From positions 5,440 to 69,439 of the forward strand of contig JBAYJP010000006.1 in assembly GCA_041665025.1 (NCBI GenBank): a stretch of 64,000 bases of DNA, given 5' to 3'. How positions within the stretch are numbered: the first letter of the stretch is position 1; every line of letters begins with the position of its first letter. This DNA is from Candidatus Magasanikiibacteriota bacterium. GTDB lineage: Bacteria; Patescibacteriota; Patescibacteriia; Magasanikbacterales; UBA922. Under the pieces are notes generated by a model. It saw only the letters and a program-made list of their open reading frames with translations, was not told the DNA's origin and ran no database searches. Positions 2,974-56,630 of the stretch are shown here, piece after piece. The translations under genes were made by a program, and so were the position numbers.

Positions 2974-3002
2974 GTGGTGACGAATTACAACCCATCACCT
3001 GT

Positions 3003-3105
3003 CCTCTTCCCTTAAAAAAGGAAGAGTAACCATCAGCGAACACAAAACTTCTCTACAACGTTCTCCCTCCCTTTTTAAGGGAGGGAGCCAGAGGGTGGGT
3101 TGCTC
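3003..3105. repeat. GC-rich REP-like hairpin cluster (family A): CTCTTCCCTTAAAAAAGGAAGAG, then CTCCCTCCCTTTTTAAGGGAGGGAG followed by CCAGAGGGTGGGTTGC.
   Basis: Perfect inverted repeats read directly. The same hairpin-plus-tail architecture recurs at 5397-5437, 6291-6330, 13586-13660, 14707-14737 and 34641-34802. Confidence 0.7.
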
Positions 3106-3339: not shown

Positions 3340-3740
3340 AGTCGTGGGCGGTCTTCTGTGGAGAAGTACTGGTGTAAAGAACGAGACCACTCGCGACTTG
3401 CCCGGCTGTGGCGGTGGGAGCCGGAAGGGCAGAGAGTCCGGGCCTAGAGGCCCGGCGAGGTCAGGCGCGGTTTCGCGCCTGCATCAGAGCGCGATAGTCG
3501 TTCGAGCCGATCCCGGACTGAACGCCCGAGAACGCGACATCGTAGGTGTTCTCCGAGCCGACCGGCTTGAAGCGAACACGGATGTCCAGTTCCGTGTTCA
3601 CACCCACGATGTGCCCACGCACGCCACGATCGCCTCGAACTTCGATGTGCTCTTCCAGAATCTTCACGAGTAAACTCCCTCAGGGATTTGCGCAAGGCCG
3701 CCTGCCCGACCCAATCGGGTATGGCCTCGCACGAGATGAC
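3340..3740. other. High-GC island 1, about 400 bp of GC-rich DNA in an AT-rich intergenic region. It carries one small ORF with its own RBS and terminator.
   Basis: Abrupt composition shift visible by eye. Long ORFs appear in several frames, which is typical of high-GC sequence. Confidence 0.6.
3461..3667 (-). CDS. Small (68 aa) protein encoded on high-GC island 1. It uses a GTG start and its function is unknown.
   Basis: GGGAG RBS lies 9 nt upstream of the GTG. A CCGGGCCTAGAGGCCCGG hairpin sits immediately after the stop at 3437-3456. Third codon positions are GC-rich. Confidence 0.4.
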   Translation of the reverse strand: MKILEEHIEVRGDRGVRGHIVGVNTELDIRVRFKPVGSENTYDVAFSGVQSGIGSNDYRALMQARNRA

Positions 3741-4521: not shown

Positions 4522-6735
4522 TTATTCAAGATGAACACTCGTTTCCCACTCCTCCACTTTCTCTCTCAAACTTGGATACTCTCCAAAATCAATACCTCTT
4601 GCCATATCTCGCGCTAGTTTAATCAAGTCATGATCTTTGAGCGTGGCTAATTTGAAATTCATCATACCACTCTGTGCTGTGCCATACACTTCTCCAGGCC
4701 CACGTTGGTCTAGATCATACTCTGCCACTTTGAATCCATCAGTTGTTTTTTCAAAATACGATAATCGTTCTTTTACTTTGTCTGTGTCACTGTCAGTAAA
4801 CAAAAAACAATACGACTGGTGAAAACTTCTGCCGACTCGTCCTCTAAACTGATGTAACTGAGCCAAACCAAACCTCTCAGCACCTTCTATCATCATCACA
4901 CTTGCATTGGGAATATTTACGCCAACTTCCACAACTGACGTAGAAACTAAAATGTCTAACTCCCCTGCTGCAAATTTTTTCATGGTCTCATCTTTTTCTT
5001 GTGATTTCATTTTTCCATGTAAATACCCAATTCTTAGATCAGGAAAAACATTCTTAGATAATTTCTCATATTCTGCGAGTACACTCTTTTTTTCAAATGT
5101 AATTGGTAATTGGTAATTGGTAATTGGAATTTTATTTGTATCTTGTCTCTTGGAATTTATTTCTTCTATTAGTGGGCATACAACAAATACTTGCTTTCTA
5201 CGCTTCACTTGTTCGCGTATAAACGCATACGCCTTGTCTCGATTGTGTGGATCTACGAGCCGTGTCATCACTGGCTTTCTATCTTTTGGCATTTCACGGA
5301 TAATAGACAAATCCAAATCACCATACAAAGTCAGAGCAAACGAACGTGGGATAGGTGTCGCAGTCATTGAAAGGAAATGGGGTGAAAGTCTGTCGTCCTC
5401 CCCTCTCTTCGTAAGAGAGGGGCCGGGGGTGAGTTGCGCCGCCGAAGAAATACTTTTCTCTTTTAAAATCTTCCTCTGCTCTACCCCGAACCGGTGCTGT
5501 TCGTCCACAATCACCAAACCCAAATTCTTAAACTGCACATCTTCGGTAAGTAAGGCATGCGTCCCCACAATAACATCAACCTCTCCTTTTGCGATTTGGT
5601 CTATCATTTCTTTTTTTTGAGAAATTTTAGAATTGTTTCGAAATTCGAAATTCGAAATTCGAAATTCATTACGCGTTTGAATCCCCAACCTAACTTTATC
5701 TCCCAACAACTTCACAAGCGACTCATAATGTTGCACCGCCAAAATCTCTGTCGGCGCCATGATGACTCCCTGATATCCATTAAGTGCGGTATTATAGAGC
5801 GCCATTGCCGCCACAACTGTTTTACCAGACCCAACGTCCCCTTCTAGCAAACGATTCATCGGCTCTTTCTTTTCCAAATCTTGCAAAATTTCCCATGCTG
5901 AAACTTTTTGATCTTTCGTGAGTGCAAAAGGAAGCGAATGTACAAATTCTTTAATGGCGTCTTCTTGAAATGAAAGTTGAGGAGCAACAGATCTTTTTAT
6001 ACTTTGGCGTATCATTTCAGCACGAAGTTGCATGACAAATAGTTCATCAAACTTAAGCCGTCTTTGCGCGTATTTCAATTCATCTTGGCTTTCAGGAAAA
6101 TGTATTGCTTTCAAGGCCTCTTGCAACGGCATAATATCTGCCTGCTCCAATAAGTCATCGGGCAACCATTCCTTTATTTCATTTCTAACCTCAATAATCT
6201 GGCTCATCAAAAATCTAATCTGCTTGTGCGTTATACCGGTTGTCAATGAATACATCGGCACTATTCGAGCTGTGTGCGTACTCAAGAGCGTTCCCTCTCC
6301 TTGTAGGAGAGGGTCAGGGTAAGGTCTCTGCTTCACCTTTTCATATCCAGGAGAAACCATCTCTAACCCAAACATATCTGACTTTACTTTCCCAGATAAA
6401 TACACACTATCACCCACATGCAGGGCTTTCGCAATAAACGGCTGACCAAACCAAATAATTCGTAATTGCCCTGAATCATCGGCAACTAAAGCTTCAGTTA
6501 TCATTTTCCGTTTCCGCGGACTTCGTTTATTTGAGATAAGTTCAATTTTTCCTTGTATCGTAACATCCATCCCCTCTTGCAAATCTTTAATTGAAACAAC
6601 GGAACTGTAATCTTCATAGCGAAAAGGAAAATAAAACAAAAGATCCTCGACTGTTTCCACACCGAGATGTTTTAGCCGCGTTGCAAGGATTTTCCCCACG
6701 CGGTTTAATTGTGTAATAGGGGTAGTCAAATTCAT
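4522..6735 (-). CDS. recG: ATP-dependent DNA helicase RecG
   Basis: Wedge/OB N-terminus; helicase motifs GDVGSGKT, DEQHRFGV and MTATPIPRS. It contains four in-frame repeat insertions, described in the findings. Confidence 0.9.
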   Translation of the reverse strand: MNLTTPITQLNRVGKILATRLKHLGVETVEDLLFYFPFRYEDYSSVVSIKDLQEGMDVTIQGKIELISNKRSPRKRKMITEALVADDSGQLRIIWFGQPFIAKALHVGDSVYLSGKVKSDMFGLEMVSPGYEKVKQRPYPDPLLQGEGTLLSTHTARIVPMYSLTTGITHKQIRFLMSQIIEVRNEIKEWLPDDLLEQADIMPLQEALKAIHFPESQDELKYAQRRLKFDELFVMQLRAEMIRQSIKRSVAPQLSFQEDAIKEFVHSLPFALTKDQKVSAWEILQDLEKKEPMNRLLEGDVGSGKTVVAAMALYNTALNGYQGVIMAPTEILAVQHYESLVKLLGDKVRLGIQTRNEFRISNFEFRNNSKISQKKEMIDQIAKGEVDVIVGTHALLTEDVQFKNLGLVIVDEQHRFGVEQRKILKEKSISSAAQLTPGPSLTKRGEDDRLSPHFLSMTATPIPRSFALTLYGDLDLSIIREMPKDRKPVMTRLVDPHNRDKAYAFIREQVKRRKQVFVVCPLIEEINSKRQDTNKIPITNYQLPITFEKKSVLAEYEKLSKNVFPDLRIGYLHGKMKSQEKDETMKKFAAGELDILVSTSVVEVGVNIPNASVMMIEGAERFGLAQLHQFRGRVGRSFHQSYCFLFTDSDTDKVKERLSYFEKTTDGFKVAEYDLDQRGPGEVYGTAQSGMMNFKLATLKDHDLIKLARDMARGIDFGEYPSLREKVEEWETSVHLE
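5397..5437. repeat. Family A GC-rich hairpin, in-frame inside recG: CCTCCCCTCTCTT CGTA AGAGAGGGG then CCGGGGGTGAGTTGC.
   Basis: It translates through on the minus strand as ...AAQLTPGPSLTKRGEDDRLS... in the variable region before MTATPIPRS. Confidence 0.65.
6291..6330. repeat. Family A GC-rich hairpin, in-frame inside recG: CCCTCTCC TTGTA GGAGAGGG then TCAGGGTAAGGTCTC.
   Basis: Translated as ...KQRPYPDPLLQGEGTLL... It contains a GTAG tetranucleotide. Confidence 0.65.
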
Positions 6736-10930: not shown

Positions 10931-10994
10931 AGTTCATAGCCAATAGCCAGTAGCTCATAGTATTGAACATTGTCCATTCTATTGGCTATGAACT
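10931..10994. repeat. Palindromic repeat, family E: AGTTCATAGCCAATAG ... CTATTGGCTATGAACT
   Basis: Perfect 16-bp inverted arms between der and pth. A related copy lies at 54321-54390. Confidence 0.6.
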
Positions 10995-11014
10995 ATTGGC
11001 TATCAACTAATTAT

Positions 11015-11560: not shown

Positions 11561-11565
11561 TTTAA

Positions 11566-11682
11566 CCTATCACATAACACATATCACGTATCACATTGAC
11601 GAAATCACAGAGAACGTCGAATCTGATGTTATGTGTTATGTGTTATGTGTTATATGTTATGTGTTACGTGCTACGTAATATC
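11566..11682. repeat. Imperfect inverted arrays of CACATAA/GTGTTAT heptamers flanking the dprA start
   Basis: TATCACATAACACATATCACGTATCAC ... GTTATGTGTTATGTGTTATATGTTATGTGTTACGTG. Confidence 0.5.
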
Positions 11683-13585: not shown

Positions 13586-13660
13586 CCCTCCCCCTACAAG
13601 GGGGAGCCAGAGGGGGTCTTCTAAAATTAAGACCCCACCTCGCCTCCCCTTCTAGGGGAG
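13586..13660. repeat. Family A REP-like cluster of three hairpins (CTCCCCCTACAAGGGGGAG, GGGGTCTT..AAGACCCC, CTCCCCTTCTAGGGGAG)
   Basis: Intergenic, between the membrane protein and the folC-like gene; shares the CCAGAGGGGGTC tail. Confidence 0.65.
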
Positions 13661-13673: not shown

Positions 13674-15050
13674 ATGACATTTGACCAAGCATACAATTAC
13701 ATCCTCTCTCTCAACAATCTTCCGCGCAAAGAATACATGGCCGACCCTCGCCACTGCGGATGGTATCTTAAGCGCCTCCAGTTTTTCTTGGATATTTTAG
13801 GGAACCCCGAACGCAAAATTCCACACTATATTCACGTAACCGGCACAAGCGGCAAAGGATCGGTGACTGCCTATATGCATTCTATACTTCATGCAAGCGG
13901 GAAAAAGGTAGGCTCGACCTACTCCCCTCATCCTACTATTATCACTGAGCGATGGAAAATTGGGAACAAATTTATGACAAAAAAAGAGTTTGTCCAATTA
14001 GTGGAATATATCAAGCCAAAACTTGATGAATACACGGCAACTACTCCCTATGATGCGCTGTCCTTCTTTGAAATCACTGAAGCAATCGGTTTTTTGTATT
14101 TTGCAAAACATAATGTCAAATGGGCAGTTTTAGAAGTTGCCTGCGGAGGACGTTATGATGCAAGTAATATTATTCCGTGGAAAGATATCGCTGTTATTAC
14201 AAATATAGGGTTAGACCATGTCGGGCTTATTGGTAATAATAAATCAGAAATTGCATACGAAAAAGCTGGCATCATAAAACGTGGGTGTACATTTTTTTCT
14301 ACTGAAAAAGATAAGAGGATTATCAATGTATTAACTCGGGAAGCAAAAAAAATATTAAATATTAAAGATATTAGGATATTAAATGATATTAAATATCCCA
14401 ATATCACAATATCAAAATATCATAATATCCCAATATCTGGAACCAACTTTACATACAAAGATGCCATATATCACCTGCCCACAATAGGTACGCATCAAAT
14501 ACAAAATTCAATATTATGTATCGAAATTGCCAAACATCTTCATATTCCGCAACATGCTATCAAGCGCGGACTCTCACAAGTCAAACAGCCTCTTCGTATG
14601 GAAATCGTTTCTCACAATCCTCTCGTCATCCTTGACGGCGCACACAATCCAGACAAGATGAGGACGACTGTTGAGACTACAAAAACATTGCAAAAACAAA
14701 AAAATATCCTCCCCCTAGGGGGAGGCGAGAGGGGGTCAAAAAATATCCATCTGGTCGTCGGCTTCTCTGGTGACAAAAACATTCCCAACATGGTTAAACA
14801 ACTTGCCACTGTCAAACCAAAATCAATTGCGGTGACACGCAACACAACAAATCCATTTCGTAAAGTCGCAGACCTACAACTTGTTGCTAGGCAATTTAAA
14901 AAATTACTTCCAAAATCAAAAATTAAACTCTTCCTCGAACCATCTAAAGCATTATTGTGGACAAAAAAAATAGCCAAGACACATGATATCATCTTGGCTA
15001 CTGGATCAATATTTGTAAGTGGAGAACTACGAGGTCAAACAAATGGATAG
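13674..15050 (+). CDS. folC: Folylpolyglutamate synthase / dihydrofolate synthase (Mur ligase family)
   Basis: Mur-ligase P-loop HVTGTSGKGS and overall FolC-like layout. It carries an in-frame AT-rich low-complexity insert (14349-14438) and an in-frame family-A hairpin (14707-14737, PLGGGERGS). Confidence 0.7.
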   Translation: MTFDQAYNYILSLNNLPRKEYMADPRHCGWYLKRLQFFLDILGNPERKIPHYIHVTGTSGKGSVTAYMHSILHASGKKVGSTYSPHPTIITERWKIGNKFMTKKEFVQLVEYIKPKLDEYTATTPYDALSFFEITEAIGFLYFAKHNVKWAVLEVACGGRYDASNIIPWKDIAVITNIGLDHVGLIGNNKSEIAYEKAGIIKRGCTFFSTEKDKRIINVLTREAKKILNIKDIRILNDIKYPNITISKYHNIPISGTNFTYKDAIYHLPTIGTHQIQNSILCIEIAKHLHIPQHAIKRGLSQVKQPLRMEIVSHNPLVILDGAHNPDKMRTTVETTKTLQKQKNILPLGGGERGSKNIHLVVGFSGDKNIPNMVKQLATVKPKSIAVTRNTTNPFRKVADLQLVARQFKKLLPKSKIKLFLEPSKALLWTKKIAKTHDIILATGSIFVSGELRGQTNG

Positions 15051-23931: not shown

Positions 23932-23998
23932 AAAAAAATTTAGAATTTCAAATTTTAAATTTCGAATTGTTTCAAAATTTAGAATTCAAAACTAATAA

Positions 23999-28608: not shown

Positions 28609-28720
28609 AATTATTCTAATTATACTAACTATTCTAATTATTCTAAACAAATTCTAATTTCAAAAAATAATTTGTGTATTCCTTAGGTCAATTAGAATAA
28701 TTAGCACAATTAGAACAATT
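28609..28720. mobile_element. Second copy of the MITE-like element (AAAAATTATTCTAATTATACTAA ... TTAGGTCAATTAGAATAATTAGCACAATTAGAACAATTG), between scpA and scpB
   Basis: Same terminal inverted repeats as 7827-7937; about 110 bp. Confidence 0.5.
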
Positions 28721-34640: not shown

Positions 34641-34802
34641 GCCCCTCTGAGTTTGTTCGAGCAACCCACCCTTAATCCCTCCTTTAAAAAGGGAGGGAAA
34701 GACGATTTAACAAACTCCTCCTCCCTTTTTAAGGGAGGAGGTTGGGAGGTGGGTTGCACGGACAATGCAAGGGAAAATAAAAAGAAGATAGGTTGCTCGA
34801 AC
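34641..34802. repeat. Family A REP-like cluster: two oppositely oriented CTCC(T)CCCTTTTTAAGGGAGG hairpins nested inside a GTTCGAGCAACCCACCC ... GGGTGGGTTGC ... GGTTGCTCGAAC outer inverted repeat
   Basis: Intergenic, between aspS and the M23/LTD gene; read directly from sequence. Confidence 0.65.
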
Positions 34803-40559: not shown

Positions 40560-41300
40560 CTCGTCCGTTTTAAAATTTAGAAACCACGTCGTCAACCAGC
40601 AAGAGTGCGATGTGGATATTGAGAAGTAAATTTACTCCTTAGTACCCACATCACATCTCTCGACCGCGAGAAGTTTTTCGGGGGCACTCGCTCCCGACTC
40701 GCGGTCAAGCCGCAAGCGCCGCGTTTCGCGGTAAGGAAAGGGGGACTCATGTCCCACCTGCGGCTCGCGCTGTTCGCCGCGATCGCGGCGCTGGCACTCG
40801 TCCTCTCGGGCTGCGTCGAGCCCGAGGACGAGACGAATGAGTCTCCCGACACGACGCAACAGCCGTCGGGAGATGTGCAGGCGCCCCTCTGCCAGAAGAA
40901 GGCGGACGGGACCTGCCGCGACGACGTCGCCCCCTCCCCGGGCGACGAGATCGTCGGTGACGACACCGACGGGGAGACGGACGAGGACGTCCTCCAGCCG
41001 AACGGCTGCGAGGCGGTGGAGTGGACCGAGATCACGATCGGCCACGACATCGCCCTCTGCCACGCCGAGAACGGCATGGGCAGCGAGGGCGAGTGCGAGT
41101 TCGCCATGTACGAGCAAGATGGGCAGTGCGTCACCGACTGCATGCCCAACTTCTCGGGGCGACCGACGAACGAGATGGAGGCGGTCCCTGGTGGATTCGC
41201 CTACAACCACCCGTTCCTCGGGCGGGTCATCTGCATCATGCAGTGACCCGACCACACCCGACTGAGCTCGTCCGTGGACTGGGATGCGTCGCGCACCGGT
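40560..41300. other. High-GC island 2, about 740 bp, immediately upstream of the RAYT and 3' of the giant gene
   Basis: Abrupt compositional shift. Contains the inverted repeats GACCGCGAG..CTCGCGGTC and GATGTGG..CCACATC. Confidence 0.6.
40749..41246 (+). CDS. Lipoprotein (165 aa) encoded on high-GC island 2
   Basis: Signal peptide with lipobox LVLSGC; a GGGGG RBS; strongly GC-biased third codon positions. Overlapping ORFs in other frames are GC artefacts. Confidence 0.55.
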   Translation: MSHLRLALFAAIAALALVLSGCVEPEDETNESPDTTQQPSGDVQAPLCQKKADGTCRDDVAPSPGDEIVGDDTDGETDEDVLQPNGCEAVEWTEITIGHDIALCHAENGMGSEGECEFAMYEQDGQCVTDCMPNFSGRPTNEMEAVPGGFAYNHPFLGRVICIMQ

Positions 41301-41333
41301 CCCTAGAGAATAACAAAATGGTATTATCTAGAG

Positions 41334-41377: not shown

Positions 41378-44300
41378 TTACGGAATGACAATAATTGCAC
41401 CTTTATATTTTGTAAAATGATAATCATGCATGGTTGAATCATCACATTGATGATCAGTAGTATCATTAAAAAATGCGGTCGGATTGCCATTACCATCTAC
41501 CCCATTACACCACCCCCAATTATCAAGCACCTGAACGCCGGGTTTGAAGATACAGATACCAGTCTCTTCGGTAATTTCACTGCGTTCCATGAGACGAGCG
41601 TATGCTTCGTCTGCGTATGAGAGATTATCACCAAAATATTTTCTCTTTATGGTGTCATTTCTCAAATCACCTACTTCAATATCTGTCGTGTTGCAATAAT
41701 AGGTATGCTCGAATTCAAAATAATTTTCCTGGCACGCACGCGGTGCATCTCCAAAGATTGGATCCTCAATGTTATCATCACAAAAGTAGCCATCCCCAAA
41801 TATCTGGACGCATTCCTCATCTTTTTTACATGTAATGGGAGGCTCGCCCTGAGCCCAGTTACGTTCACGTTCATCTCCTGTACATCTACCTACTGTTTTA
41901 TTACCGTCTGTATCATCACAATAAGGCTTGTGATTCCGATACATGCCCTTTACATCTTTGTTTTGCACGTCCGTGCCGTCGTCCCAATTCACCATCACTC
42001 TGCGTATAGGCATGCGATTATCATCCGCAAACGCAAAGAACCGAGCATTGACCGTAACACTTCCCTGCTGGATAAATGGATCGGGCGTACCTCTTCCGAA
42101 ATCGCTTTTATCTTCATCCCCGTCTTTCCCATCGTCATCATAATCTTTCATTGTATAATTTTTCATGTTAATCGTGATATTGTCTGCTTCTCCTGGAATA
42201 CAATCTTTGTCTCTCCTCGAACATAGGCTCGGGTTGATAGAGAAAATTTGTGGAGGTTTGGTATCGCCAATAAAATCTTGACCTCCTAAATTACTGCTAT
42301 AATCTTCTCCGACATATTCACCTCCTACATAGTCTCCAAGTGTGTCCACTACTGCATCATCTCCAAAAAGATGATTTTGCGACTTAATACTAAAATACTT
42401 CAAAAATAAATCATTCAAACTCAGGTAATACAGATTTGCGTCTTGATATGAAAAATTATCATCCTGTTCTTGTTCTTGCCTATCTACTGCGTGAGTATTT
42501 ATTCCTTTAAGCGTGGCATAACTACCTCCTGTGGTTTTTATTTCTTCACATATAGTTGGAACTCCTCCCAGACGATGGCTATCTGTTTCGTCGCAACTAT
42601 AAGGGAACCCATCGAATACGAGATTGGTGAATGTGTATGAAAGCCAATAAGGATTTCCAATCCCAAGCCATGGATCAAGAGGGCTCGTTCCGCGAAGTGA
42701 GAGAGAAGCATAAGGTTGGAGTTGAGTGGTTTTGAAAATCTGACTAAAAAACCCTGATGACGCTAGATATTCACCGTGTTCCCAGATGCGATCTGTCCAT
42801 GCCTTATTTGTAGTATCTCCAATGTCTCCGCTTTCGTCATATACCTTTACAAATTCATTACAGCTCTCATTCAACTCGACAATAACCGCAAATCGGATGC
42901 CGTGTCCTTCTCCATCATCATTTTCATATCCATTACACCAGCGAGATACATATCCAAGAAATTCACCATTTTTATTAAAGTCAAGGCCAATGGCAATCCA
43001 ACTACCTTCTTTTTTGCCGTCATTTTCATCCTGATGAAGATTAAATTTACATTCAGCCTGCAGAGGATCGGAGTCAGCATTACTGGGTAGACTTACTTCC
43101 TGGCCAGCTATTCCATTCACCAGATCTGTGTTAGGCAAAAACTCAGGCGTTTGCTTTTCAGTATTAGTCAATGGGTAGTATTCATGATATACACCCATAT
43201 ATCTATGCTCTATCTCATTGAGTGTTTGTAAAGCAGGATACCTTTTATACACTTCAAGTATCTTACCGGAAAACTCATATGGACTTGAATCATCATATCC
43301 CTGAAACGACACTAATCCATTTTCATTATCCTTATCCAAAAGATATGTGTACAAGCCTGCGTCCGCAGCACCATCGTCATTAAAAAAATCTATATACCCT
43401 CCATCACTATTACCTCTAATATAATGATATGTTAATGGAACTCTCTCATGAAAGGCAATTTTATCAGGTTCTCTTCCACCTGGGCCTGCAATTCCTCTCA
43501 AACCATTAAAATCAATTCTAAACGCATCTGTCAACAAAGGAACAGGTGCTCCGCCCTCGAGCTTACCTGGATAAGCAACAGGAACAAAATAAATGGCCTT
43601 TATATCTTTTTCTCTTATTTTTTCTTCAAGCGTCGAGCGATATATCTTTGGATAGCTATCGGAAAATGCTAATTTAGTCATCGAAGCTAGTGTCATCGAT
43701 TCTCCTAACACTCTGTCCACGGTTAAAAACGAAGTTTCAACCTTATAATCTATTCCATGCTCTAACTCCATGCCTATAAGAGTCCTGTCTCGAGATGTTT
43801 CATCGCTGTTTTCTATTCCATCGAGGTCACTCATGAAAAAATTCTTGGCATCTGTATCTGGGAGATCTCGAGCTTCTGCAGCCTTATCCCACAAACGCGG
43901 AGGATGCATAAATGTTCCCAGCTCGACAGTATCATACAGCTCAGCATATGTGCCCTCATTTTTTTCAAAAATAGAAGGAGCAAAAATCTCAGGTACGAGT
44001 AATGATGCATCATCTTTGGCCACTTGGCTCTCCAAACTTGTGATATAATCTACACTATTAAAAGCTAGATAGGGATATAATTCTCCTCCTCTTGGATTCA
44101 TGTCCATTCGCAGTACTGTCGCGTTTGTGCCTATTTTCCTCCACGCCCATATATTCATAAGTGCAATAGGAGTGTTTTCTTCATATGGTCCTCGCCATGC
44201 ATCCCTATTGAGATCATCAGCCCAACACATAATATATCTATACATCCCCGTATGACCACAACTTTCTCCGTCATCAAGATTGAGAGGACAAATGCCGCCT

Positions 44301-47300
44301 GCATTTGTTTTAACATTGGGACAATTTTCAGCTAGGCCAGCACTACCCCATGGCAAATTTTCTGAATCCATAAACCGGGTGTAATCTCTATTCATCACTA
44401 TCTGGTGGGCCGGGGGTGCATCTGGATTTGTCTTTAGAGTAAAATTTCCATCTGCAGGTCCTGTTCCTCCGGGCTCAAAACTATATGTACCACCAAAATC
44501 TACTTCTGAATACGCACCTCCGACATTATTACTCAAACTGCAATAATATTCGCCGCCATTGCTTTCACTATCGAGTGTGGGAAAATATCCGGCATCCTGG
44601 TAGGCATTGTAGTTGTCAACAGTAGAAGCAGATGATTGTATAGGAAACCAGGTAAGGCACGCATACTGTTCATCCATACGAACCATGCTCCCGGCTGGCC
44701 CAAGTGGTCGGCTCAGATCATATTCAAGACATAGCCCTTTAAGCCCAAAATATGATGCCTGTTGTTTGATCATACTACATGTTCCTGTGCTACCGCATTC
44801 ATCATTGGTCATACAAGGGAACCCATTTATTGCGCCATCTCCTACACAAACTCCCCCGGTACTTACATGTGCCGGCGTGTCTCGTACTGGCCAATAATCA
44901 ATAGTGCCGTCTTTATATTCTATTTTTCTATATTCACACGAACATTCTTCAACTATAGAGCCATCCTCTTTTACTACTCGTTGACATACATTCGCTTGCG
45001 AATATATTGGTTTTTTTGTCGAGTAATCCCAACGATAATACTGATTGTCCTCCCCTGACGTTTTTTTGTCTCTTTGTTCCGGCTGTTGAGTTAGCGCCAT
45101 TTGAGTAGAAAAAGGACTGCCTTGCTCCGGGTATGCTTTACATATGCCTGTTTCCAAATAAATAGTCATCTCTTCAACTGAATTAACCTCATCGGGAAAC
45201 ATTCCACCGAGTGGATATGTACACCGTTGTTTATAACATCTACCCCCATCATCAAAACCGCACGCATCGCCGTCTTCTTTTTTAAATTTGCTGTCGCTAT
45301 CCACCTCACTGCAGCCTACGTCTGGAAAATCTGCGTCCCCGTCGCCATCTTTATCTGCCATAAAAAATGAATCATTCATCAGATAGGTCAGGTAGACTTC
45401 GTTATCCAAGACAACAGACTTGTAATTTCCAATATTATACTTGTTGAATAAAGAATATCCCGAATATTCAAAACTACCCCAACCTACATTGCGAATGACA
45501 TATTCTTCCTCTGATAACAATGTGTTGTTAAGTGATATGTCTGCCCAACCATCATCGGCGCACGCCCCGTTGCTATTGAGTTTATTACATGTTCCGTAGT
45601 CTTGACATATCCGCTGAGGCACATTATTTTCATCATATACGGTCATCGATGTCCGGCACGCCAACCACTCACTACACTCACGATCACGTTCTACTTTGAG
45701 AAGTACATTGGTATCACGCGTTCCTGCGGTGGCAATAGGAACAAGCGCGTACTTTTTGCTCATACTATCTGCATACGTCAGTACGCTATTATATATCTTG
45801 TTTGGATTTTCAGTCATGTTGAAGAGCACGCATCCTTCTTTTTGGCTCGCTTTGCTATCGCATTCTCCGGTACGTTCAAACAAGCGATCATTATTTATCA
45901 CATAATAAGGTTCACCATCCATATTCCCCGACGTATCTGCTGGATCTATGAGCTCAGTACACCCACTGTATTCTGTTTCGCACATCCCCACATACCCTTG
46001 GTATCCAGGGGTGCCCTGGGACAAAAGTCCATATTCTCCGCTTCCCGAGAGCTGATTTGGATAGCACGCTGTGAGGCCTTTTTTGCATGTTTCGCCTGAA
46101 ACGGTACACTCATTGTCACTGCTACAATAGGTATTAGTACCTCCGCCTGCTTCAGTTTGGCACTGTCCAACGTTATCCATAAACCAGCCACTATATTGTA
46201 TACCACTTATTTCGACATTATCGCGATATGTGCATGATTTAGCACCAATAACAGCCGGATCTTTGAAATAAGTGAGATTATTTCCATTTCTATACTCAGA
46301 ACACCCGACCAAATCTTCACTGCATAATGTCTGGTCATAGTGATCCGGATTATTGAGGACCATAGTATCTGAAAAACTATACGCGGTGTTACTCTGCGCG
46401 TCTGGATTTGTCTGCTGTTGTAATCCTACTTTCTCGCATCCCACATGTTCATCGCTACATACAAATTCAGAACGATGAGTAAGGTAAATCGTATTGGAAT
46501 CAGCAGGAACAACAATAGTAGACGTCACTACATACAAATCGTCAGTATTACCCGTACAAAGACCTACCATGCCAGTTCTCTCTATACACCCACTGGGGAG
46601 ATACACCTTATTGTGAAATTCAGTTGCTCCTGGATCATCGCTATAACTGGGTACGACAACCGCAGTATCTATATAACAACTTGTTTCTCCTTTTCGTATC
46701 GTACAACTATATGTTTCAAAATTAGTAGCGTCAGAATATATTTTTGCCTCGCATTTCGATGCATCACCTGGATACGTAGGACTTGTCGTACCCCGTTTAC
46801 ATAATACATTGTACGCATTCATTTGCATGGCATCTTCACCTGATACAGTATTGTATGTATCTACCATCGCCTTACACCCAACTGCCTCGACACGGCACAA
46901 ACGGTCAAAACCAGACAAAGCAACAGGCTCATTATCTCGTGTCGTGTATGCACGACAGCCCAATGCTTCGCCAGGAAATGCGTCAAGCGGTGTAGAATCG
47001 CATAAAAGTGGCACATCATACCCTTCGCGTGTTTTCCATGAATTTTTTATCAGATAAAGATGGTCATCATTTTCCTGTCCAATACGAACAATGCGGACAT
47101 TATCAATAAAGTACGAGGCAGATTCATTGGTGTCCAAAAACAATGACGCCGTGCCACTCGCCATACCCGTAAACTGTACAGGGCCCAATGTATATTCCTG
47201 CCAATCATTGCCAATAGGCGCTTGTATCGAAGTATTGGTAAGCGGATCAAGCGTAAATGTTCCTTTTGTTGCTCCGTCTTGTCTAAACGAAATGTCCAAT

Positions 47301-50300
47301 GCCTGAGTCTGTCCGCGCGCCCAGAAACTCAACTCATACCATGCACCCGACTGCATACGCTCGGCATTAAATGTATATGAGGCGTCACCGGTAATGCGCA
47401 AAGAATGAAGGCCGACTTGCGTTGCCTCTGCTTCAATAGAAGTATTGCCTGGCCACCCTTCCTTTGCCCGTGTCAACGCATCTGTATCATCCCCATCCGG
47501 TTCAAAATTCATGGAATGAACTTCAATATTATTCCCCTGATTGCCAATATATGAACGGCATCCATTTGCTGTCGCAGGGCATGAATCTGCTTCGCTTTTT
47601 ATGGAATAATATACGCATGCGCCTTGCGCGGGATTACTCGGATCTGTTTGATATGTTCCGCCATTATAACAACGATTGCACACGCTATTCACACTATCCC
47701 ATGTACCACCTTTCTGCGCACATAACGTATTTTTTGCAACCCCTCCGACAGACCCTGATCCGGATAAATATTCATCCTCGTACAAATTTGAAATGCTTTT
47801 ACGCAATGGACGGCAGTCCAAAGACACTGACACGGTATCATTTTTCAAACGATAATATACGCCTCCGGAAGCATCATAATACGCGCGGCAGTCAGGACTT
47901 GTATTAGAAGCATATGGATTTTGCAAATGCAGATTATATTGTGCTGCATTACAAATTGCATAATTATTTTCCAAGGAAGTTTTACTATCATCGGCGTATG
48001 CCGGAGAGTTACTCGCAAACTCAGCAACCGCACCACTTGCCAGACCAAGTCCTGAAATATAAAGTGCCTGAGCCGCGTCAATTTTTGCAAGCGTGTGTTT
48101 TTGCAATATAAATCCCTGACTTGCAGAACCTTCCCACGTATAAAATACTTTTGCATTTTCACCTTCGGGTCGTTCACAATATTTCAAATTACTATAATAT
48201 TCTAGTGACTCGCCTCCGCCGGTGAGCGCATCAATATTGGTAAATTCATCACACCCTACATACTGAGCTGCGCACGTCTGACCGCCTGAAGGACCTGTAG
48301 GAATAAAATACATGGGAAATTGAGATTGTTCGAAATTGGATTCTTCTTGTTTAAACGTGTCATATCCAATACACTGCTCATTGCATAAATTTTCTGTGGT
48401 TGCAATGCCCGGAATTTCTATACCCCCTTGCGCCGGAGTATACCCTTTGCATCCCACTTCGTCTTGTACACACACTTGCGCAAAATTACTGCAACTTTCC
48501 GGTTTATCTTCAAATCCAACAAGATCCGCGCGAGTCTGCGGCCAATCTATGGCAGGCGTACCAATATTTTTATCATAACAACCCAGATACTCTGGAGCTT
48601 TTTTCAATCGAATTGATTCTCCATTCAAAGCATCTTTGAAAACACTACATCCTTCTGCGTTACCGGGACATGAAGCGTAGGAAGATAATTTGTCATTAAA
48701 ATAAAGCATTTGCTCTCTGCCAAGAAGTTTATCCTCGATATTTACTTGGCCACTATTCTTCCATGTACCATCTTCATTTTGTTCACTACTATATGCACGG
48801 CATCCTTTTGATTCCACACTGCATGCGCCATAGTCGAGGGTGCGTGAAAGATACGATGATACAGAGCCCGAGACTGAATTGACATATGTTTTGCATGTGT
48901 TGTAATACGCCGGACAACTGTCTCCCGGCATATGCCATACATTTTTTTCTTTTGTACAATATCCATACGAAATGCACTGGCCTTTGTCGTCTTCTTTGAG
49001 ACATGTTGAAAAATCTACGCACTCCTGCGTTCGCAGGGCTGTACCTTCTTGTTGCAATTGGGGACCCCACACGCGCGCTTCACAGCGAGCCTCAGGAGCT
49101 TTGATAATCCAATTGGGATCAATGAGGTGACAATATGGGAAAGCAGCACTTGGTCTTCCTGAGGGATCGCACTCGGTAAATCCGTCTACGACCTTCTTTA
49201 GTGTCACGGGGTTATCTGGATCAGATTTAAGTGCAGCAATTTCAAACCCAAGCGGTAAAATACGTGCTTTTCTAAGTTTTTGAATATTTGAATAACAATA
49301 TGCCTGACTATAGCAATAGGGCAAATTCGTATTATCTACATCACGACCTGGCGGTATGAGTAGCCAATTTTCATGAAGCTGTCCACTCTTCATTGCTTCA
49401 TCTATGGTAAGAGGATCCCCTGTTTGTGCCAAATTGACTGCTTCTACAAGCTTACCATCCATAACACAATTATTGAGTCCTGGCGCCGGCGTTTGCGGAC
49501 ATGCACTGAATTCAGTTACCAAATCATAGGTGTCGAGGCTGCGCTGAGGAACCGTTGCAATAAGATATGAAAAAGCTTTTTCTGCCGCCTGACGATTGTA
49601 ACTAATATTTGAAGCAAAAAAATCAGTAACTCCTGAGGATTCGCTATCACCACCTGAAGGAAATAATCCCCCATCCATTATATTTTGTAAAAGAGAAGAC
49701 ACGAGCGTATTAGCAAAGACTGACAGCGCCATGGGCAAAATCTGTAAAGATCCTGAACCATAGATACCTGCGATTTGACCGGCCGTCATGTCTCCTTGAT
49801 TTTTTGCAGTCACTGACTTTGTTTCTTCTTGGATTACTTGGGCTGGCGTTCGAATCTTACCTGAGATAATGTCAGCAACTGGTTTGAAGCCATTTCCCTC
49901 TTGACGCGCTTGAGTTGCGTCTATCTGCGATTGGGTCACCACACGATCCAACTTCCCCATCAGTCCAAGCGCCGCTCCAAAATCTGAGTCTGAAACACTT
50001 AGAGAGGCAGTGAAACGCTCGGAAATAGCGTCCTTACTTCCGTACATATCATCAACTTGCTCCCAATTACTCGTGAATTCAGACCAATTACAACGAGGAG
50101 CTGGACCGCCTTCGTTTCCATATTCTGAATCATATATTCTCTGCAATCCAACCTGTAGCCCCACTTGCACCCGAAGATCCGGTGGTTTACACAAATCAAG
50201 TCCGAGAGGCTCCCCAAACTGCTGAATGGCTCCCGCAGCACTATCCAATGCAGTATTTCCAAGATATGAACCAAAACCATCTTGAAATGCGAGTGCGCTT

Positions 50301-50599: not shown

Positions 50600-50698
50600 A
50601 GTTATAATGTTATAAAGTTCCGAGTTATAAAGTTCCGAGTTATAAATATATAAATTTTTCTATAACTTTATAACATTATAACTTTCAACTTTACAACC

Positions 50699-51394: not shown

Positions 51395-51520
51395 CTTGCT
51401 AAGTTTTCTAAGTATCTAAGTTTTCTAAGTATCTAAGTTACAAGTCTATAGTAATAACTTAGTCAACTTAGCGAACTTAGTAAACTTAATTAACTTAGTC
51501 TAGTATACCAAAAAATAAGA
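51395..51520. promoter_or_regulatory. Symmetric heptamer array upstream of the giant-protein operon: CTAAGT x5, a central spacer, then ACTTAG x5
   Basis: Read directly from sequence. The same heptamer family occurs at 22965-23080 and 40165-40205. Confidence 0.5.
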
Positions 51521-51533: not shown

Positions 51534-52388
51534 TTATGTGAGTTTTTTGGCCAAAGTTATCCACTGTTGCACATTGAGTTCCTGCGCCCGTGCTTTTTCA
51601 TTGTCTATTATCTCTTTTAAGAAGCTTTCCATTTGTAATTTATCTCTTTTCAACCCATCTGCTAAGTTTTTTGCCAACTGTTTTCGTTTGTTGGCAAATC
51701 CAATTCTTGCAATTTCAAAAAATCTCTGATTAAAATCTCTGTTCCCTGTTCCTTGTTCCCTAATCAATATATGTACCACAGCTGAATCAACCGCGGGCAT
51801 TGGCCAAAAATTACCTTTAGGAACTTTGCATACAATTTTTGGCTCACCATAGTATTGGACTGACAAGGACAACAAACTCATATCTCCTGGTTTGGCAACT
51901 ATTCTTTCAGCAACTTCTTTTTGAACCATGACCGTAATGCTTTCTGGTTTGTGTTCAAGCTCGAGCAAAACGCGCAGGATATGTGAGGTGATTTGATAAG
52001 GTAAATTAGCAATCACTTTATAATTTTTGATACGTGATACGTGATACGTGATGAGTGATAAAACATCTCCCCAAATAATTTCAATATCTCCTGTCTCATT
52101 GTCTAATCTTGTAATCTTAAAATCTTTTAATCTTTCGTCCCAATACTGTTCCAACCGTCGTTCAATCTCAAACGCTTTCACATGTGCACCTCTCTGTGCT
52201 AATTCAAACGTCAGCACGCCAAAACCTGGTCCTATTTCAATAACTGTGTCCCCTTTCCTGACATCCGCTGCTTCAATCATTTTGTGAATAGGCGCATCTG
52301 AAATCAAAAAATTCTGGCCATACTTTTTGGAAGGGATAAGACCACATTCTTTGCAGAGTTGTTTCAGTTTAGTTGGCGTGAGTTGCAT
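51534..52388 (-). CDS. rsmA: 16S rRNA (adenine1518/1519-N6) dimethyltransferase RsmA/KsgA
   Basis: YGQNFL...IEIGPGFG...NLPYQITS motifs. It contains an in-frame GTGATAC x3 tandem at 52028-52060. Confidence 0.9.
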   Translation of the reverse strand: MQLTPTKLKQLCKECGLIPSKKYGQNFLISDAPIHKMIEAADVRKGDTVIEIGPGFGVLTFELAQRGAHVKAFEIERRLEQYWDERLKDFKITRLDNETGDIEIIWGDVLSLITYHVSRIKNYKVIANLPYQITSHILRVLLELEHKPESITVMVQKEVAERIVAKPGDMSLLSLSVQYYGEPKIVCKVPKGNFWPMPAVDSAVVHILIREQGTGNRDFNQRFFEIARIGFANKRKQLAKNLADGLKRDKLQMESFLKEIIDNEKARAQELNVQQWITLAKKLT

Positions 52389-52486
52389 AAAAAAATAATT
52401 TCTAATTTTAAATTTTCAATTTAGAAACAATTTACAATTTTAGAATTTTTTAATTCGAAATTGTTTTAAAATTTGAAATTAAAAAT

Positions 52487-54755: not shown

Positions 54756-54830
54756 GATAAAAATGTACGAAATTCGAAAACTGCGAAATATCCGAAATTC
54801 GTTTTTTTCGTACCTTTCGTAGTTTTCGAA
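54755..54830 (+). repeat. Hairpin element F of about 75 nt: GTACGAAATTCGAAAACTGCGAAA ... TTTCGTAGTTTTCGAATTTCGTAC, a 24-bp stem with one G-U pair
   Basis: A near-identical copy lies at 56241-56312, so the pair flanks nusB and rnc. Confidence 0.65.
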
Positions 54831-54846
54831 TTTCGTACATAAAAAT

Positions 54847-55323: not shown

Positions 55324-55436
55324 AACTCAAAAATCAAATCTCAAAACTCAAATAAAAAACTTAAAACTAAAACCGCTCTGAATATTCATTTTTGAGTTTA
55401 GAGTTTATGTTTTGACTTTTGACCTTTGAGTTTTGA
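55324..55436. repeat. Long AT-rich hairpin built from CAAAACT/AGTTTTG-type repeats (family G)
   Basis: AACTCAAAAATCAAATCTCAAAACTCAAA ... TTTGAGTTTAGAGTTTATGTTTTGACTTTTGACCTTTGAGTTTTG. A second copy of the family lies at 56399-56490. Confidence 0.5.
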
Positions 55437-56240: not shown

Positions 56241-56312
56241 GTACGAAATACGAAAACTGCGAAATATTCGAAATTCGTTTTTCGTACCTTTCGTAGTTTT
56301 CGTATTTCGTAT
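56241..56312 (+). repeat. Second copy of hairpin element F, between rnc and tRNA-Lys
   Basis: GTACGAAATACGAAAACTGCGAAATATTCGAAATTCGTTTTTCGTACCTTTCGTAGTTTTCGTATTTCGTATAT. Confidence 0.65.
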
Positions 56313-56318: not shown

Positions 56319-56394
56319 GGGTCGCTAGCTCAGTTGGTAGAGCAGTTGCCTCTTAAGCAAACGGTCCAGGGTTCGATCCCCTGGCGACCCACCA
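56319..56394 (+). tRNA. tRNA-Lys (anticodon CTT) with an encoded CCA
   Basis: GGGTCGC acceptor, GCTCAGTTGGTAGAGC D-arm, anticodon loop CTCTTAA, T-arm CAGGG TTCGATC CCCTG, then ACCA. Confidence 0.85.
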
Positions 56395-56495
56395 ATATAA
56401 AACTCAAAACACAAAATTCAAAATGCAAAACTGAGATAATGCATACATAAAAATAAGTTTTGAATTTTGAGCTTTGACTTTTGAGTTTTTTTATT

Positions 56496-56567: not shown

Positions 56568-56630
56568 CGCGTAAAAAATTTCGAATTTTAAATTTCGAAT
56601 TTCGAAACAATCAATTTAGAATTCAATCCT

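What the first reader, a model, noticed from the sequence alone, without database searches (positions are those of the whole stretch)
4522..6735. recG carries four separate in-frame repeat insertions: two GC-rich REP-like hairpins and two tandem heptamer arrays
Inside the recG CDS I see four insertions. Two are family-A GC-rich hairpins, at 5397-5437 (translated ...AAQLTPGPSLTKRGEDDRLS...) and 6291-6330 (...KQRPYPDPLLQGEGTLL...). Two are tandem heptamer arrays: (AATTGGT)x4 at 5099-5131 (...IPITNYQLPITF...) and (GAAATTC)x4 at 5636-5667 (...NEFRISNFEFRNN...). All keep the frame and sit in loop or variable regions; for example, the first hairpin lies just before the MTATPIPRS motif. The same hairpin and heptamer families also occur intergenically. 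This is the pattern of Rickettsia palindromic elements, which insert in-frame into protein genes, but here it involves a different element family and a different, CPR-like lineage.
Basis: seen in the sequence. Interest (0 to 1): 0.8.

Follow-up and report, generated by a model that had tools for sequence, protein, structure and literature searches.

The report
Triplex motifs and heptamer arrays inside recG
An intact DNA-repair helicase gene (recG) of an uncultured Magasanikbacteria (CPR) bacterium has four short pieces of the genome's own repeat DNA translated as extra surface loops: two are BoxC-like "intrastrand triplex" motifs, previously described only between genes, and two are slippage-prone 7-base arrays, one of which has lost a unit and broken recG in a related strain.

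Summary
recG (4522-6735, minus strand, 737 aa) is intact and carries all four repeat segments in frame.

- **GC-rich hairpins.** They are not plain REP hairpins. Each has a pyrimidine arm, a 3-nt loop, a purine arm, a 3-nt turn and a G/T tail that mirrors the purine arm. This is the class II purine-motif intrastrand triplex architecture known as BoxC/PIT/TMECO in E. coli, where it is reported as always intergenic.
- **Family in the window.** There are nine copies: three pairs between genes and three inside genes (two in recG, one in a folC-like gene).
- **Heptamer arrays.** They belong to a lineage-wide excess of 7-9-nt arrays, about 8 times denser than in outgroup loci and mostly intergenic.
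- **Orthologues.** Across eight Magasanikbacteria recG genes the same four loops are hypervariable. Elements are present or absent, sit in different reading frames or have different units. Non-CPR RecGs lack all four segments.
- **Structure.** Three of the four inserts are low-confidence loops in an AlphaFold model.
- **Instability.** In a near-identical strain pair, loss of exactly one 7-nt unit at the site-2 array splits recG.

Best reading: tolerated, recurrent in-frame colonisation of permissive loops by DNA-level repeats. This is RPE-like in outcome, but the elements are different and there is no evidence of transposition. I rate it a new variant of known kinds.

The parts
4522..6735 (-). 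recG coding sequence, 737 aa, intact; helicase motifs I, II, III and VI conserved
6293..6325 (+). Site 1 (RecG aa 137-149, wedge-domain loop): intrastrand-triplex motif CCCTCTCCT-TGT-AGGAGAGGG-TCA-GGGTAAGGT. 8 of 9 triples fit. The G-rich strand is the template strand of recG. Translated as RPYPDPLLQGEGT.
   Evidence: pLDDT <50 at 137-165; 92% nt identity to the L081 copy against 67% in flanking codons
5637..5667 (-). Site 2 (aa 357-367, between helicase motifs Ib and II): heptamer array, GAATTTC on the coding strand, 4.4 copies. Translated as EFRISNFEFRN.
   Evidence: every Magasanikbacteria orthologue has an array here, with other units; a one-unit deletion splits recG in L088 compared with L089
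5400..5435 (+). Site 3 (aa 430-447, between motifs II and III): intrastrand-triplex motif CCCCTCTCTT-CGT-AAGAGAGGGG-CCG-GGGGTGAGTT. 10 of 10 triples fit. Followed by a further GC-rich stretch of about 15 nt (5436-5450). Translated as AAQLTPGPSLTKRGED.
   Evidence: gap of 17-21 aa in 1gm5_A and 9wm0_A; pLDDT <50 at 431-447
5099..5131 (-). Site 4 (aa 535-545, after the motif IV strand CPLIEE): heptamer array, CCAATTA on the coding strand, 4.9 copies. Translated as IPITNYQLPIT.
   Evidence: gap of 18 aa in PDB RecGs; pLDDT <50 at 525-548
2992..3101 (.). Intergenic inverted pair of triplex motifs: 2992-3026 on the minus strand and 3063-3101 on the plus strand (11 of 11 triples)
13588..13660 (.). 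Intergenic inverted pair of triplex motifs: 13588-13617 (+) and 13632-13660 (-)
14708..14735 (+). Triplex motif in frame inside the Mur-ligase/FolC-like ORF 13674..15050 (peptide LPLGGGERGS). Here the G-rich strand is the coding strand.
34666..34755 (.). Intergenic inverted pair of triplex motifs: 34666-34698 (-) and 34717-34755 (+, 11 of 11 triples)
56577..56606 (+). Intergenic array of the same unit as recG site 2 (AATTTCG x4.3). A weaker copy lies at 23946-23966.
14359..14437 (+). 8-10-nt arrays in frame inside the FolC-like ORF. The region is indel-variable among orthologues.
52028..52135 (-). Two arrays (TGATACG x4.7 and TAATCTTT x4) in frame inside the KsgA/RsmA ORF 51534..52388

Best explanation
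recG of this Magasanikbacteria genome has been colonised, in four structurally permissive loops, by the two kinds of short repeat DNA that fill the genome's intergenic regions.

(a) BoxC/PIT-like intrastrand-triplex motifs, at sites 1 and 3. Each is 33-39 nt with three blocks: a pyrimidine arm, a purine arm, and a G/T third strand that mirrors the purine arm under the G.G-C, A.A-T, T.A-T rule.

(b) Tandem arrays of 7 nt, at sites 2 and 4, which grow, shrink and change unit by slipped-strand mispairing.

Both arise at the DNA level, with no regard to reading frame. Only versions whose total length is a multiple of three, that lack stop codons, and that sit in loops which do not disturb the helicase fold survive selection. 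Those versions are translated as extra, mostly disordered, loops.

The same four loops are hit again and again across the clade because they are tolerant and because the lineage produces these repeats at a high rate. A side effect is that the heptamer arrays make recG prone to frameshift inactivation in single-unit steps.

Shown: the anatomy, in-frame translation, presence or absence among orthologues, different frames and units, loop location, and one natural one-unit deletion.
Inferred: how the triplex motifs spread, that slippage is the generator of the arrays, and that the inserts are neutral or nearly so.
For: Triplex anatomy.
- Nine GC-rich copies in the window, with stems of 7-11 nt, first loops of 2-9 nt (3 nt in six of the nine copies), turns of 2-5 nt (3 nt in six) and 7-11 fitting triples. 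Shuffles give 0-1.
- In eight Magasanikbacteria loci plus the strain variant L088, 19 of 25 Y-R hairpins have a mirror tail. Only 4 pass a direct-order control.
- The arms and tail vary together between copies.
- The architecture and loop sequences (TTA, CCG) match TMECO/BoxC (PMC4666352).

Insertion status.
- Empty alleles exist at site 1 (L087), site 3 (L083, L085, L086, L087) and site 4 (L086).
- Non-CPR RecGs lack all four segments.
- The site-1 element is read in different frames: WIN/L081/L084 give P[HY]PxPL..GEG, while L082/L086 give LTPNPSPxKGEG.
- Site 3 carries different alleles in otherwise identical proteins, P0005 and P0136.

Arrays.
- Period 6-10 arrays occur at 0.36 per kb in Magasanikbacteria loci against 0.044 per kb in 80 outgroup loci. 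Period 7 accounts for 37 of 68.
- In the window, 18 arrays are intergenic (12.6% of the bases) and 7 are genic.
- Orthologues carry different units at the same site.
- An exact 7-nt unit loss splits recG in L088 compared with L089.

Tolerance.
- All helicase motifs are invariant.
- AlphaFold pLDDT is below 50 at sites 1, 3 and 4.
- Other housekeeping genes, folC-like and ksgA, carry the same elements in frame.
Against: - The site-1 element is far better conserved than neutral DNA should be. WIN against L081 is 92% identical, and 92% at third positions, while flanking codons show 45% at third positions, and the junction is the same. This points to selection on the DNA, to gene conversion from other copies, or to site-specific reinsertion. 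Simple junk would not behave this way.
- Site 2 is fixed in all Magasanikbacteria and modelled with pLDDT 83-90, so it may have become functional.
- recG carries 4 of the 10 genic elements in the window within 2.2 kb. I estimate about 0.4 would be expected from the genic density, so tolerance alone may not explain it.
- No mechanism of dispersal is known for triplex motifs. In E. coli no stable triplex was detected in vivo.
- The single unit-loss variant comes from one metagenome assembly. Another MAG has recG split outside any repeat.
Confidence: 0.6

Rival explanations
1. RPE-like mobile elements. Both the hairpins and the heptamer arrays are copies of mobile, selfish elements that transpose into genes and survive when in frame.
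For: - Triplex motifs are a dispersed family with a similar consensus in different genomes.
- They show patchy presence or absence that does not follow the RecG tree.
- Near-consensus copies sit at the same site in distant orthologues.
- In-frame insertion in several unrelated housekeeping genes matches RPEs (PMC10969869).
Against: - The alignment of 16 copies shows no terminal inverted repeats, target duplications or conserved flanks.
- The elements are only 33-39 nt.
- No transposase is associated with BoxC/TMECO in E. coli.
- The heptamer arrays have different units at the same site and change by single units. That is slippage behaviour, not transposition.
- The GTAATTG array has no second copy in the window.
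Confidence: 0.15
2. Contingency switch. The heptamer arrays are selected as phase-variation tracts that reversibly turn RecG off and on, modulating recombination and repair in the population.
For: - The unit length is not divisible by three and lies inside the coding sequence.
- An array is kept at site 2 in all Magasanikbacteria.
- A natural variant has exactly one unit fewer and a truncated recG.
Against: - Only one such variant was found, against 13 contigs carrying the intact allele.
- 14 full-length members of another cluster show no length change.
- The same arrays occur throughout intergenic DNA and in ksgA and folC-like genes, so no special link to recG is needed.
- Copy numbers are low (3-5), which gives modest slippage rates; this last point is from my own knowledge.
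Confidence: 0.12
3. Exapted protein loops. The inserted peptides have been recruited for RecG function in CPR bacteria, for example as partner binding surfaces or for DNA contacts, and are kept by selection on the protein.
For: - Site 2 is present in every Magasanikbacteria RecG, has an F-x-F/I-x-N flavour and is modelled confidently.
- CPR RecGs in general are longer at sites 1, 2 and 4.
Against: - Peptide sequences at sites 1, 3 and 4 are not conserved, are read in different frames, and are absent in close relatives.
- Conservation is at the DNA level: third positions are 92% identical.
Confidence: 0.1
4. Artefact or pseudogene. The segments are assembly errors, or recG is decaying.
For: The source is a metagenome assembly. 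Some MAG recG genes are split.
Against: - The ORF is intact and all catalytic motifs are invariant.
- The same kinds of insert occur at the same sites in at least 8 independent assemblies from different projects.
- The protein sequence is present in the NCBI, JGI and ENA collections, although on a single contig.
Confidence: 0.02

Closest known systems
BoxC / PIT elements / TMECO intrastrand triplex motifs of E. coli and other Proteobacteria and Cyanobacteria (Holder et al. 2015, PMC4666352; Hoyne & Maher 2002, cited there)
   Same: - The same three-block architecture: a C/T-rich arm, a 3-nt loop, a purine arm, a 3-nt loop and a G-rich third block that obeys G.G-C, A.A-T and T.A-T.
- Stems of about 9-11 nt.
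- Second loop TTA or CCG in several copies.
- Intergenic copies often occur as inverted pairs.
- Copies are associated with local sequence turnover between strains.
- No linked transposase.
   Different: - The published pattern CCCTCNCCC N3-6 GGGNGAGGG N3 GGGNGAGGG does not match any copy. Here the stems are CCCTCTCC, CTCCCTCCC, CCTCCTCCC or CTCCCCC.
- The host is a 40%-GC CPR bacterium.
- Three of the nine window copies, and most copies in the orthologous loci (which were chosen through recG), are inside genes and translated. TMECO in E. coli K-12 is reported as always intergenic.
Rickettsia palindromic elements (RPE)
   Same: - Repeat DNA inserted in frame into unrelated housekeeping genes.
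- Located where the protein fold tolerates it.
- Also present intergenically.
- Patchy among related genomes.
   Different: - RPEs are about 100-150 bp and each family encodes a conserved peptide.
- These elements are 31-39 nt and are read in different frames.
- One class here is a triplex motif and the other a tandem array.
- There is no sequence relationship.
Simple-sequence contingency loci (slipped-strand phase variation)
   Same: - A tandem unit not divisible by three lies inside a coding sequence.
- A natural variant differs by exactly one unit and frameshifts the gene.
   Different: - The target is a core DNA-repair helicase, not a surface or restriction gene.
- Arrays are short (3-5 units).
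- The same arrays are spread over intergenic DNA.
- No evidence of reversible switching.
Borg tandem repeats that create disordered regions in proteins (PMC9879509)
   Same: - A genome-specific excess of short tandem repeats in both intergenic DNA and ORFs.
- The genic copies add disordered segments and evolve fast.
   Different: [quoted passage not shown] Here the units are 7-10 nt, so the frame is kept only by total length.

Membership tests
Class II (purine-motif) intrastrand triplex motif, ITxF definition (PMC4666352) | Watson-Crick hairpin of a pyrimidine arm and a purine arm, stem 6-15 nt, at most one mismatch | tested here: met
   recG site 3 has a stem of 10 and site 1 a stem of 9. The other window copies have stems of 7-11.
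Class II (purine-motif) intrastrand triplex motif, ITxF definition (PMC4666352) | Loops of 1-6 nt between the three blocks | tested here: met
   Both recG copies have a 3-nt loop and a 3-nt turn. Across all nine window copies the turns are 2-5 nt; the first loop is 2-3 nt in seven copies and 9 nt in two, outside the 1-6 range.
Class II (purine-motif) intrastrand triplex motif, ITxF definition (PMC4666352) | Third block antiparallel to the purine arm, giving G.G-C, A.A-T or T.A-T triads | tested here: met
   10 of 10 triads fit at site 3 and 8 of 9 at site 1. Two intergenic copies fit 11 of 11. 19 of 25 hairpins pass the mirror rule against 4 for the direct-order control.
Class II (purine-motif) intrastrand triplex motif, ITxF definition (PMC4666352) | Actually folds into a triplex (CD or NMR on the single strand) | not testable with these tools
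   No triplex energy model is available here. For TMECO the isolated strand folds in vitro, but no stable triplex was seen in vivo.
TMECO / BoxC in the strict sense | Sequence pattern CCCTCNCCC N3-6 GGGNGAGGG N3 GGGNGAGGG | tested here: not met
   0 matches in the window and in 89 loci. A blastn of a consensus copy against E. coli genomes found nothing.
TMECO / BoxC in the strict sense | Always intergenic | tested here: not met
   3 of 9 window copies lie inside ORFs (recG twice, folC-like once).
TMECO / BoxC in the strict sense | Frequent inverted-pair configuration; second loop TTA (type A) or CCG (type B) | tested here: inconclusive
   There are three inverted intergenic pairs. Second loops seen are CCG (recG site 3), TTA (L081, L086), and also TCA, CCA, TTG and ACA.
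Rickettsia palindromic elements | Element of about 100-150 bp whose families encode a conserved peptide | tested here: not met
   The core is 33-39 nt with no conserved flanks. The peptides differ by frame.
Rickettsia palindromic elements | In-frame insertion into unrelated conserved genes at positions compatible with the fold | tested here: met
   Seen in recG, the folC-like gene and ksgA. The inserts are low-pLDDT loops and correspond to gaps against PDB RecGs.
REP / RAYT system | Simple palindrome tagged by GTAG or CGTC at one end (PMC3733652) | tested here: not met
   No conserved tetranucleotide flanks the 16 aligned copies. The conserved third block is a mirror repeat, not a palindrome.
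REP / RAYT system | A RAYT (Y1 transposase) gene in the genome | not tested
   Only a 64-kb window was available, and no systematic search for one was made.
SSR contingency locus | Intragenic tandem unit not divisible by three | tested here: met
   Two arrays of period 7 lie inside recG.
SSR contingency locus | Unit-number polymorphism among strains that switches the frame | tested here: inconclusive
   One case, at the orthologous site-2 array of another species: L088 has 2 units and L089 has 3. Nothing could be tested for this genome, which is represented by a single contig. There was no length change among 14 members of another cluster.
Borg-type amino-acid tandem repeats | Genic repeat units divisible by three | tested here: not met
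   The genic arrays in the window have periods of 7, 8, 9 and 10; only one, at 59740-59769, has a unit (9 nt) divisible by three. Compare the Borg rule.

The most novel reading that the evidence does not exclude
Magasanikbacteria, and perhaps other CPR bacteria, run a lineage-wide process in which non-B-DNA repeats are continually seeded into, and kept in, the loops of core genes. The repeats are BoxC-like triplex motifs and AAATT-core heptamer arrays.

On this reading the triplex motifs are maintained at the DNA level even inside coding sequence. That would imply a cellular function or a homing or conversion mechanism.

The heptamer arrays would act as unit-step frameshift switches that make recG, a fork-rescue helicase that itself deals with such structures, phase-variable.
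Probability: 0.2. Interest if true: 0.8.

Novelty: new variant of a known kind. Interest (0 to 1): 0.6.

Why it matters
**Triplex motifs.** BoxC/PIT/TMECO motifs have been an unexplained class of bacterial repeat for about 30 years, and the literature I could search describes them as intergenic. Finding the same architecture in a distant, small-genome CPR lineage widens their known range. Here the motifs are translated inside conserved genes and keep their three-way complementarity while neighbouring codons are saturated with substitutions. Coding copies offer built-in neutral controls, namely the synonymous sites next door. This gives a natural test bed for whether the DNA structure itself is under selection.

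**Protein evolution and annotation.** The case gives a second, mechanistically different example, after Rickettsia RPEs, of repeat DNA reshaping the loops of housekeeping proteins. It also explains the odd P/G/E-rich and F-x-I-x-N peptides that annotators will meet in CPR proteins.

**Heptamer arrays.** These arrays show that a core repair gene can be knocked out by a single slippage step. This matters for interpreting apparently split genes in MAGs and possibly for population-level variation in recombination.

Tried and rejected
- **Genome-contig scan.** These served as outgroups, not as close relatives. Close orthologue DNA came instead from exact-protein look-ups; P0015 gave no DNA.
- **Rfam.** A gathering-threshold scan of the whole window found only tRNAs, so the hairpins are not a curated RNA family.
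- **E. coli genomes.** A blastn of a consensus triplex copy gave no match. The low-complexity filter or the sequence difference could be responsible. The strict TMECO pattern also fails.
- **Alternative pairing of the tail.** I checked by hand whether the tail could pair Watson-Crick with the pyrimidine arm as an alternative hairpin. It works partly for near-symmetric arms but fails for recG site 3 and for 34717, so I rejected this in favour of the mirror (triplex) rule.
- **More frameshift examples.**
  - L090 recG is split by a deletion outside any repeat.
  - P0129/P0128 and P0144 also break outside the repeat sites.
  - So only the L088 case supports array slippage.
- **Literature.** Searches for RPE-like insertions or such repeats in CPR/Patescibacteria found nothing relevant.
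- **GC-rich islands.** The islands at 3390-3720 and 40678-41304 have no Pfam or Rfam match. They appear unrelated to the finding.
Full report
**1.

The minus-strand ORF 4522-6735 encodes a 737-aa protein with no interruptions. Pfam finds the RecG wedge, DEAD, Helicase_C and RecG domain-3 C-terminal models. The protein is 100% identical to a RecG annotated in an NCBI 'Candidatus Magasanikbacteria' MAG, so the CPR guess was right.

- TRF finds GTAATTG x4.9 at 5099-5131 and TTCGAAA x4.4 at 5637-5667.
- The two GC-rich hairpins are at 5400-5422 and 6293-6313.
- All four quoted peptides are in the translation.
- Shuffled sequence gives essentially none of these features.

**2. What the hairpins really are**

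Each hairpin has a pyrimidine 5' arm and a purine 3' arm. After a turn, usually of 3 nt, comes a G/T-rich tail as long as the stem. Read away from the turn, the tail repeats the purine arm in mirror order, with G opposite G and A or T opposite A.

- recG site 3: CCCCTCTCTT-CGT-AAGAGAGGGG-CCG-GGGGTGAGTT, 10 of 10 positions fit.
- recG site 1: CCCTCTCCT-TGT-AGGAGAGGG-TCA-GGGTAAGGT, 8 of 9 fit.
- Intergenic copies at 3063-3101 and 34717-34755 fit at 11 of 11.

A purpose-written scan finds nine GC-rich copies in the window against 0-1 in shuffles. In eight Magasanikbacteria loci plus the strain variant L088, 19 of 25 pyrimidine/purine hairpins carry such a tail. Only 4 pass a control in which the tail is compared in direct rather than mirror order. 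Different copies have different stems, and all three blocks change together.

This is the rule for a purine-motif (reverse-Hoogsteen) intramolecular triple helix. The literature search led to Holder et al. 2015 (PMC4666352). That paper describes this architecture as BoxC, PIT elements or 'TMECO', with pattern CCCTCNCCC N3-6 GGGNGAGGG N3 GGGNGAGGG and second loop TTA or CCG. It reports:
- 3610 copies in 262 proteobacterial genomes, and many G/C-rich motifs in cyanobacteria;
- in E. coli K-12, copies that are always intergenic and often in inverted pairs;
- no link to mobile elements;
- association with local sequence instability;
- triplex folding of the isolated strand in vitro, but no stable triplex detected in vivo.

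The same paper notes that purine-motif triplexes cannot form in RNA, so any structural role would be at the DNA level.

The copies here do not match the strict TMECO pattern. They do satisfy the structural definition and share the loop types and the inverted-pair habit. The three intergenic sites in the window are all pairs: 2992/3063, 13588/13632 and 34666/34717.

In recG the G-rich strand is the template strand, in this genome and in every orthologue that has the element. In the folC-like ORF it is the coding strand. Orientation relative to transcription is therefore not fixed.

**3. What the heptamers are**

The window and seven orthologous Magasanikbacteria loci carry 0.36 arrays of period 6-10 per kb. 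Eighty outgroup loci carry 0.044 per kb. Period 7 accounts for 37 of 68 arrays, and 24 of 38 period-7 units share an AAATT core.

In the window, 18 arrays lie in the 12.6% of sequence that is intergenic, where they typically form inverted pairs, meaning long hairpins with periodic arms. Seven lie in ORFs: two in recG, two in a Mur-ligase/FolC-like gene, two in ksgA and one in a DUF11 protein.

The recG site-2 unit recurs intergenically at 56577-56606 and, more weakly, at 23946-23966. The site-4 unit has no second copy in the window.

**4. Are they insertions?**

Against solved RecG structures:
- Sites 3 and 4 are clean gaps of 17-21 and 18 residues in T. maritima 1gm5_A and E. coli 9wm0_A.
- Sites 1 and 2 are about 10 residues longer.

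Chloroflexi, Streptococcus and Vampirovibrio RecGs have minimal loops at all four sites.

I threaded DNA onto a protein alignment of this gene and seven Magasanikbacteria orthologues with 69-75% amino-acid identity to it over ungapped columns.

| Site | This genome | Orthologues |
|---|---|---|
| 1 | Triplex motif | Triplex motif in L081, L084, L082 and L086; TTCACAG-type array in L083; composite insert in L085; empty in L087 |
| 2 | GAATTTC array | An array in every orthologue, with different units: AATTTTC, AATTTGA, an 18-mer, ATAAAGTC and others |
| 3 | Triplex motif | Triplex motifs in three others; empty in four |
| 4 | CCAATTA array | Heptamers of six different units; a different inverted repeat in L083; empty in L086 |

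The element at site 1 is read in one frame in WIN, L081 and L084 and in another in L082 and L086. At least two independent events hit that loop. The presence pattern does not follow the RecG tree.

In the 28-protein alignment the same four columns are the only large indel regions, apart from occasional lineage-specific extras. On the other hand, the phenomenon belongs to the whole clade, not to this genome.

**5. Structure**

An AlphaFold2 model built from the 28-sequence alignment has mean pLDDT 77. Apart from short segments at 37-42 and 680-694 and the C-terminal tail, pLDDT falls below 50 only at 137-165, 431-447 and 525-548, which are sites 1, 3 and 4. Site 2 is modelled confidently, at 83-90. 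All helicase motifs are invariant across the clade.

The inserts lie in:
- a wedge-domain loop (site 1);
- between motifs Ib and II (site 2);
- between motifs II and III (site 3);
- just after the motif IV strand (site 4).

**6. Dynamics**

- *A conserved element.* Between this genome and L081 the site-1 element is 92% identical, and 92% at third codon positions. The surrounding 100 codons are 67% identical overall and 46% at third positions. The junction (AGA CCT) is shared. The element is therefore either kept by selection or gene conversion at the DNA level, or reinserted site-specifically. It is not drifting like neutral filler.
- *Allele replacement.* Within a cluster of at least 90% identity, P0005 and P0136 differ by a complete replacement of the site-3 segment plus a single substitution near the C-terminus.
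- *A one-unit deletion.* P0060 is an intact 729-aa RecG found on 13 contigs. In one ENA assembly it has a counterpart split into 362 and 347 aa. The DNA alignment shows the only difference in 91 nt is loss of exactly one 7-nt unit of the site-2 array, GAAATTG x3 becoming x2. This is the signature of slipped-strand mispairing, at the site homologous to 5637-5667.
- *Caveats.* This is one assembly. Fourteen full-length members of another cluster show no array change. Another MAG has recG split by a deletion unrelated to repeats.

**7. Mechanism**

*Best-supported account (confidence about 0.6).* Two DNA-level repeat classes that this lineage produces in abundance land or arise in genes without regard to frame. 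Selection keeps only in-frame, stop-free versions in loops that tolerate extra residues. RecG has four such loops, which are therefore occupied repeatedly. The heptamer arrays grow and turn over by slippage. How the triplex motifs spread is unknown, as it is for BoxC in E. coli.

*What argues for something more.*
- The DNA-level conservation of the site-1 element.
- The fixation and confident modelling of site 2.
- The concentration of 4 of the window's 10 genic elements in 2.2 kb of recG, where I roughly estimate 0.4 would be expected.

*Rivals, in order of my confidence.*
- True mobile-element behaviour, as in RPEs (0.15).
- A selected phase-variation switch on recG (0.12).
- Exaptation of the loops (0.10).
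- Artefact or pseudogene (0.02).

**8. Comparison with what is known**

- The hairpins work like, and are structurally members of, the class II intrastrand triplex motifs. They are not members of the strict TMECO sequence family.
- The overall outcome parallels Rickettsia palindromic elements (PMC10969869), but element size, coding behaviour and sequence differ, so this is an analogy, not membership.
- The arrays resemble contingency-locus repeats in form and in one observed event, but reversible switching is not shown.
- They differ from Borg genic repeats, whose units are all divisible by three.

I found no report of triplex motifs inside coding sequences or in CPR bacteria in the searchable literature. 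That library is incomplete, so the novelty is provisional.

**9. Verdict**

This is a real and well-defined feature. I rate it a new variant of known kinds, with interest about 0.6. The most interesting open question is why a triplex-forming architecture is preserved inside a coding sequence.

Noticed in passing
window 10931-11008, 11565-11670, 28609-28720, 50598-50697, 51399-51500, 52397-52499, 55324-55436, 56399-56489, 59916-59985: Most intergenic spacers consist of an array of 7-9-nt units, a short spacer, and the reverse-complement array. These form long AT-rich hairpins with periodic arms. Several unit families recur at different spacers: AACTTAG, TTATAAC, AAAACTC, TTGGCTAT and AATTTCG. 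Their function is unknown; terminator or operator roles are possible.
   Followed up: partly
window 54763-54840 and 56242-56311: Two near-identical copies of a palindromic element of about 75 nt built from CGAAA-type units. The second lies immediately upstream of tRNA-Lys (56319-56394).
   Followed up: no
window 3390-3720 and 40678-41304: Two islands of about 65-70% GC in a 40% GC genome, with overlapping ORFs on both strands. They have no Pfam and no Rfam match. The origin is unexplained; foreign DNA or an assembly chimera are possibilities.
   Followed up: partly
proteins P0024, P0046, P0074, P0076, P0082, P0086, P0146, P0147 (RecG of other Magasanikbacteria): RecGs of 877-903 aa carry a complete PF13366 GxxExxY/PDDEXK_3 nuclease-like domain (about 150 aa) in frame exactly at site 3, between helicase motifs II and III. 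Close relatives P0041 and P0145 lack it. The same loop therefore also accepts a whole mobile-looking domain.
   Followed up: partly
window 13674-15050 and 51534-52388: A Mur-ligase/FolC-like gene and ksgA/rsmA also carry short arrays in frame. The FolC-like gene carries a triplex motif as well. An L083 orthologue of the FolC-like gene has a triplex motif at the same place, and L085 lacks it.
   Followed up: partly
window 41378-50599 (-): Giant ORF of 3073 aa, not examined.
   Followed up: no
L011 483-2654 (Parcubacteria RecG): An insert of about 40 aa (SPYSDAVEGSASEHHQQYHKADSSTSLRYAQND...) at the same site 2. This suggests the loop is permissive across CPR.
   Followed up: no
proteins P0009, P0017 and P0146: Further GC-rich in-frame inserts at other RecG positions: SAQG(AVPAGRQ)GSALGG just before motif II, and PAQGGSVSGGKRSKDS after HGKM. 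These indicate additional element families.
   Followed up: no
L090 957-3063 (GCA_000998635.1): recG is split into 172-aa and 520-aa ORFs by a deletion of about 43 nt that is not in any repeat. Split recG genes in MAGs are therefore not always array slippage.
   Followed up: yes
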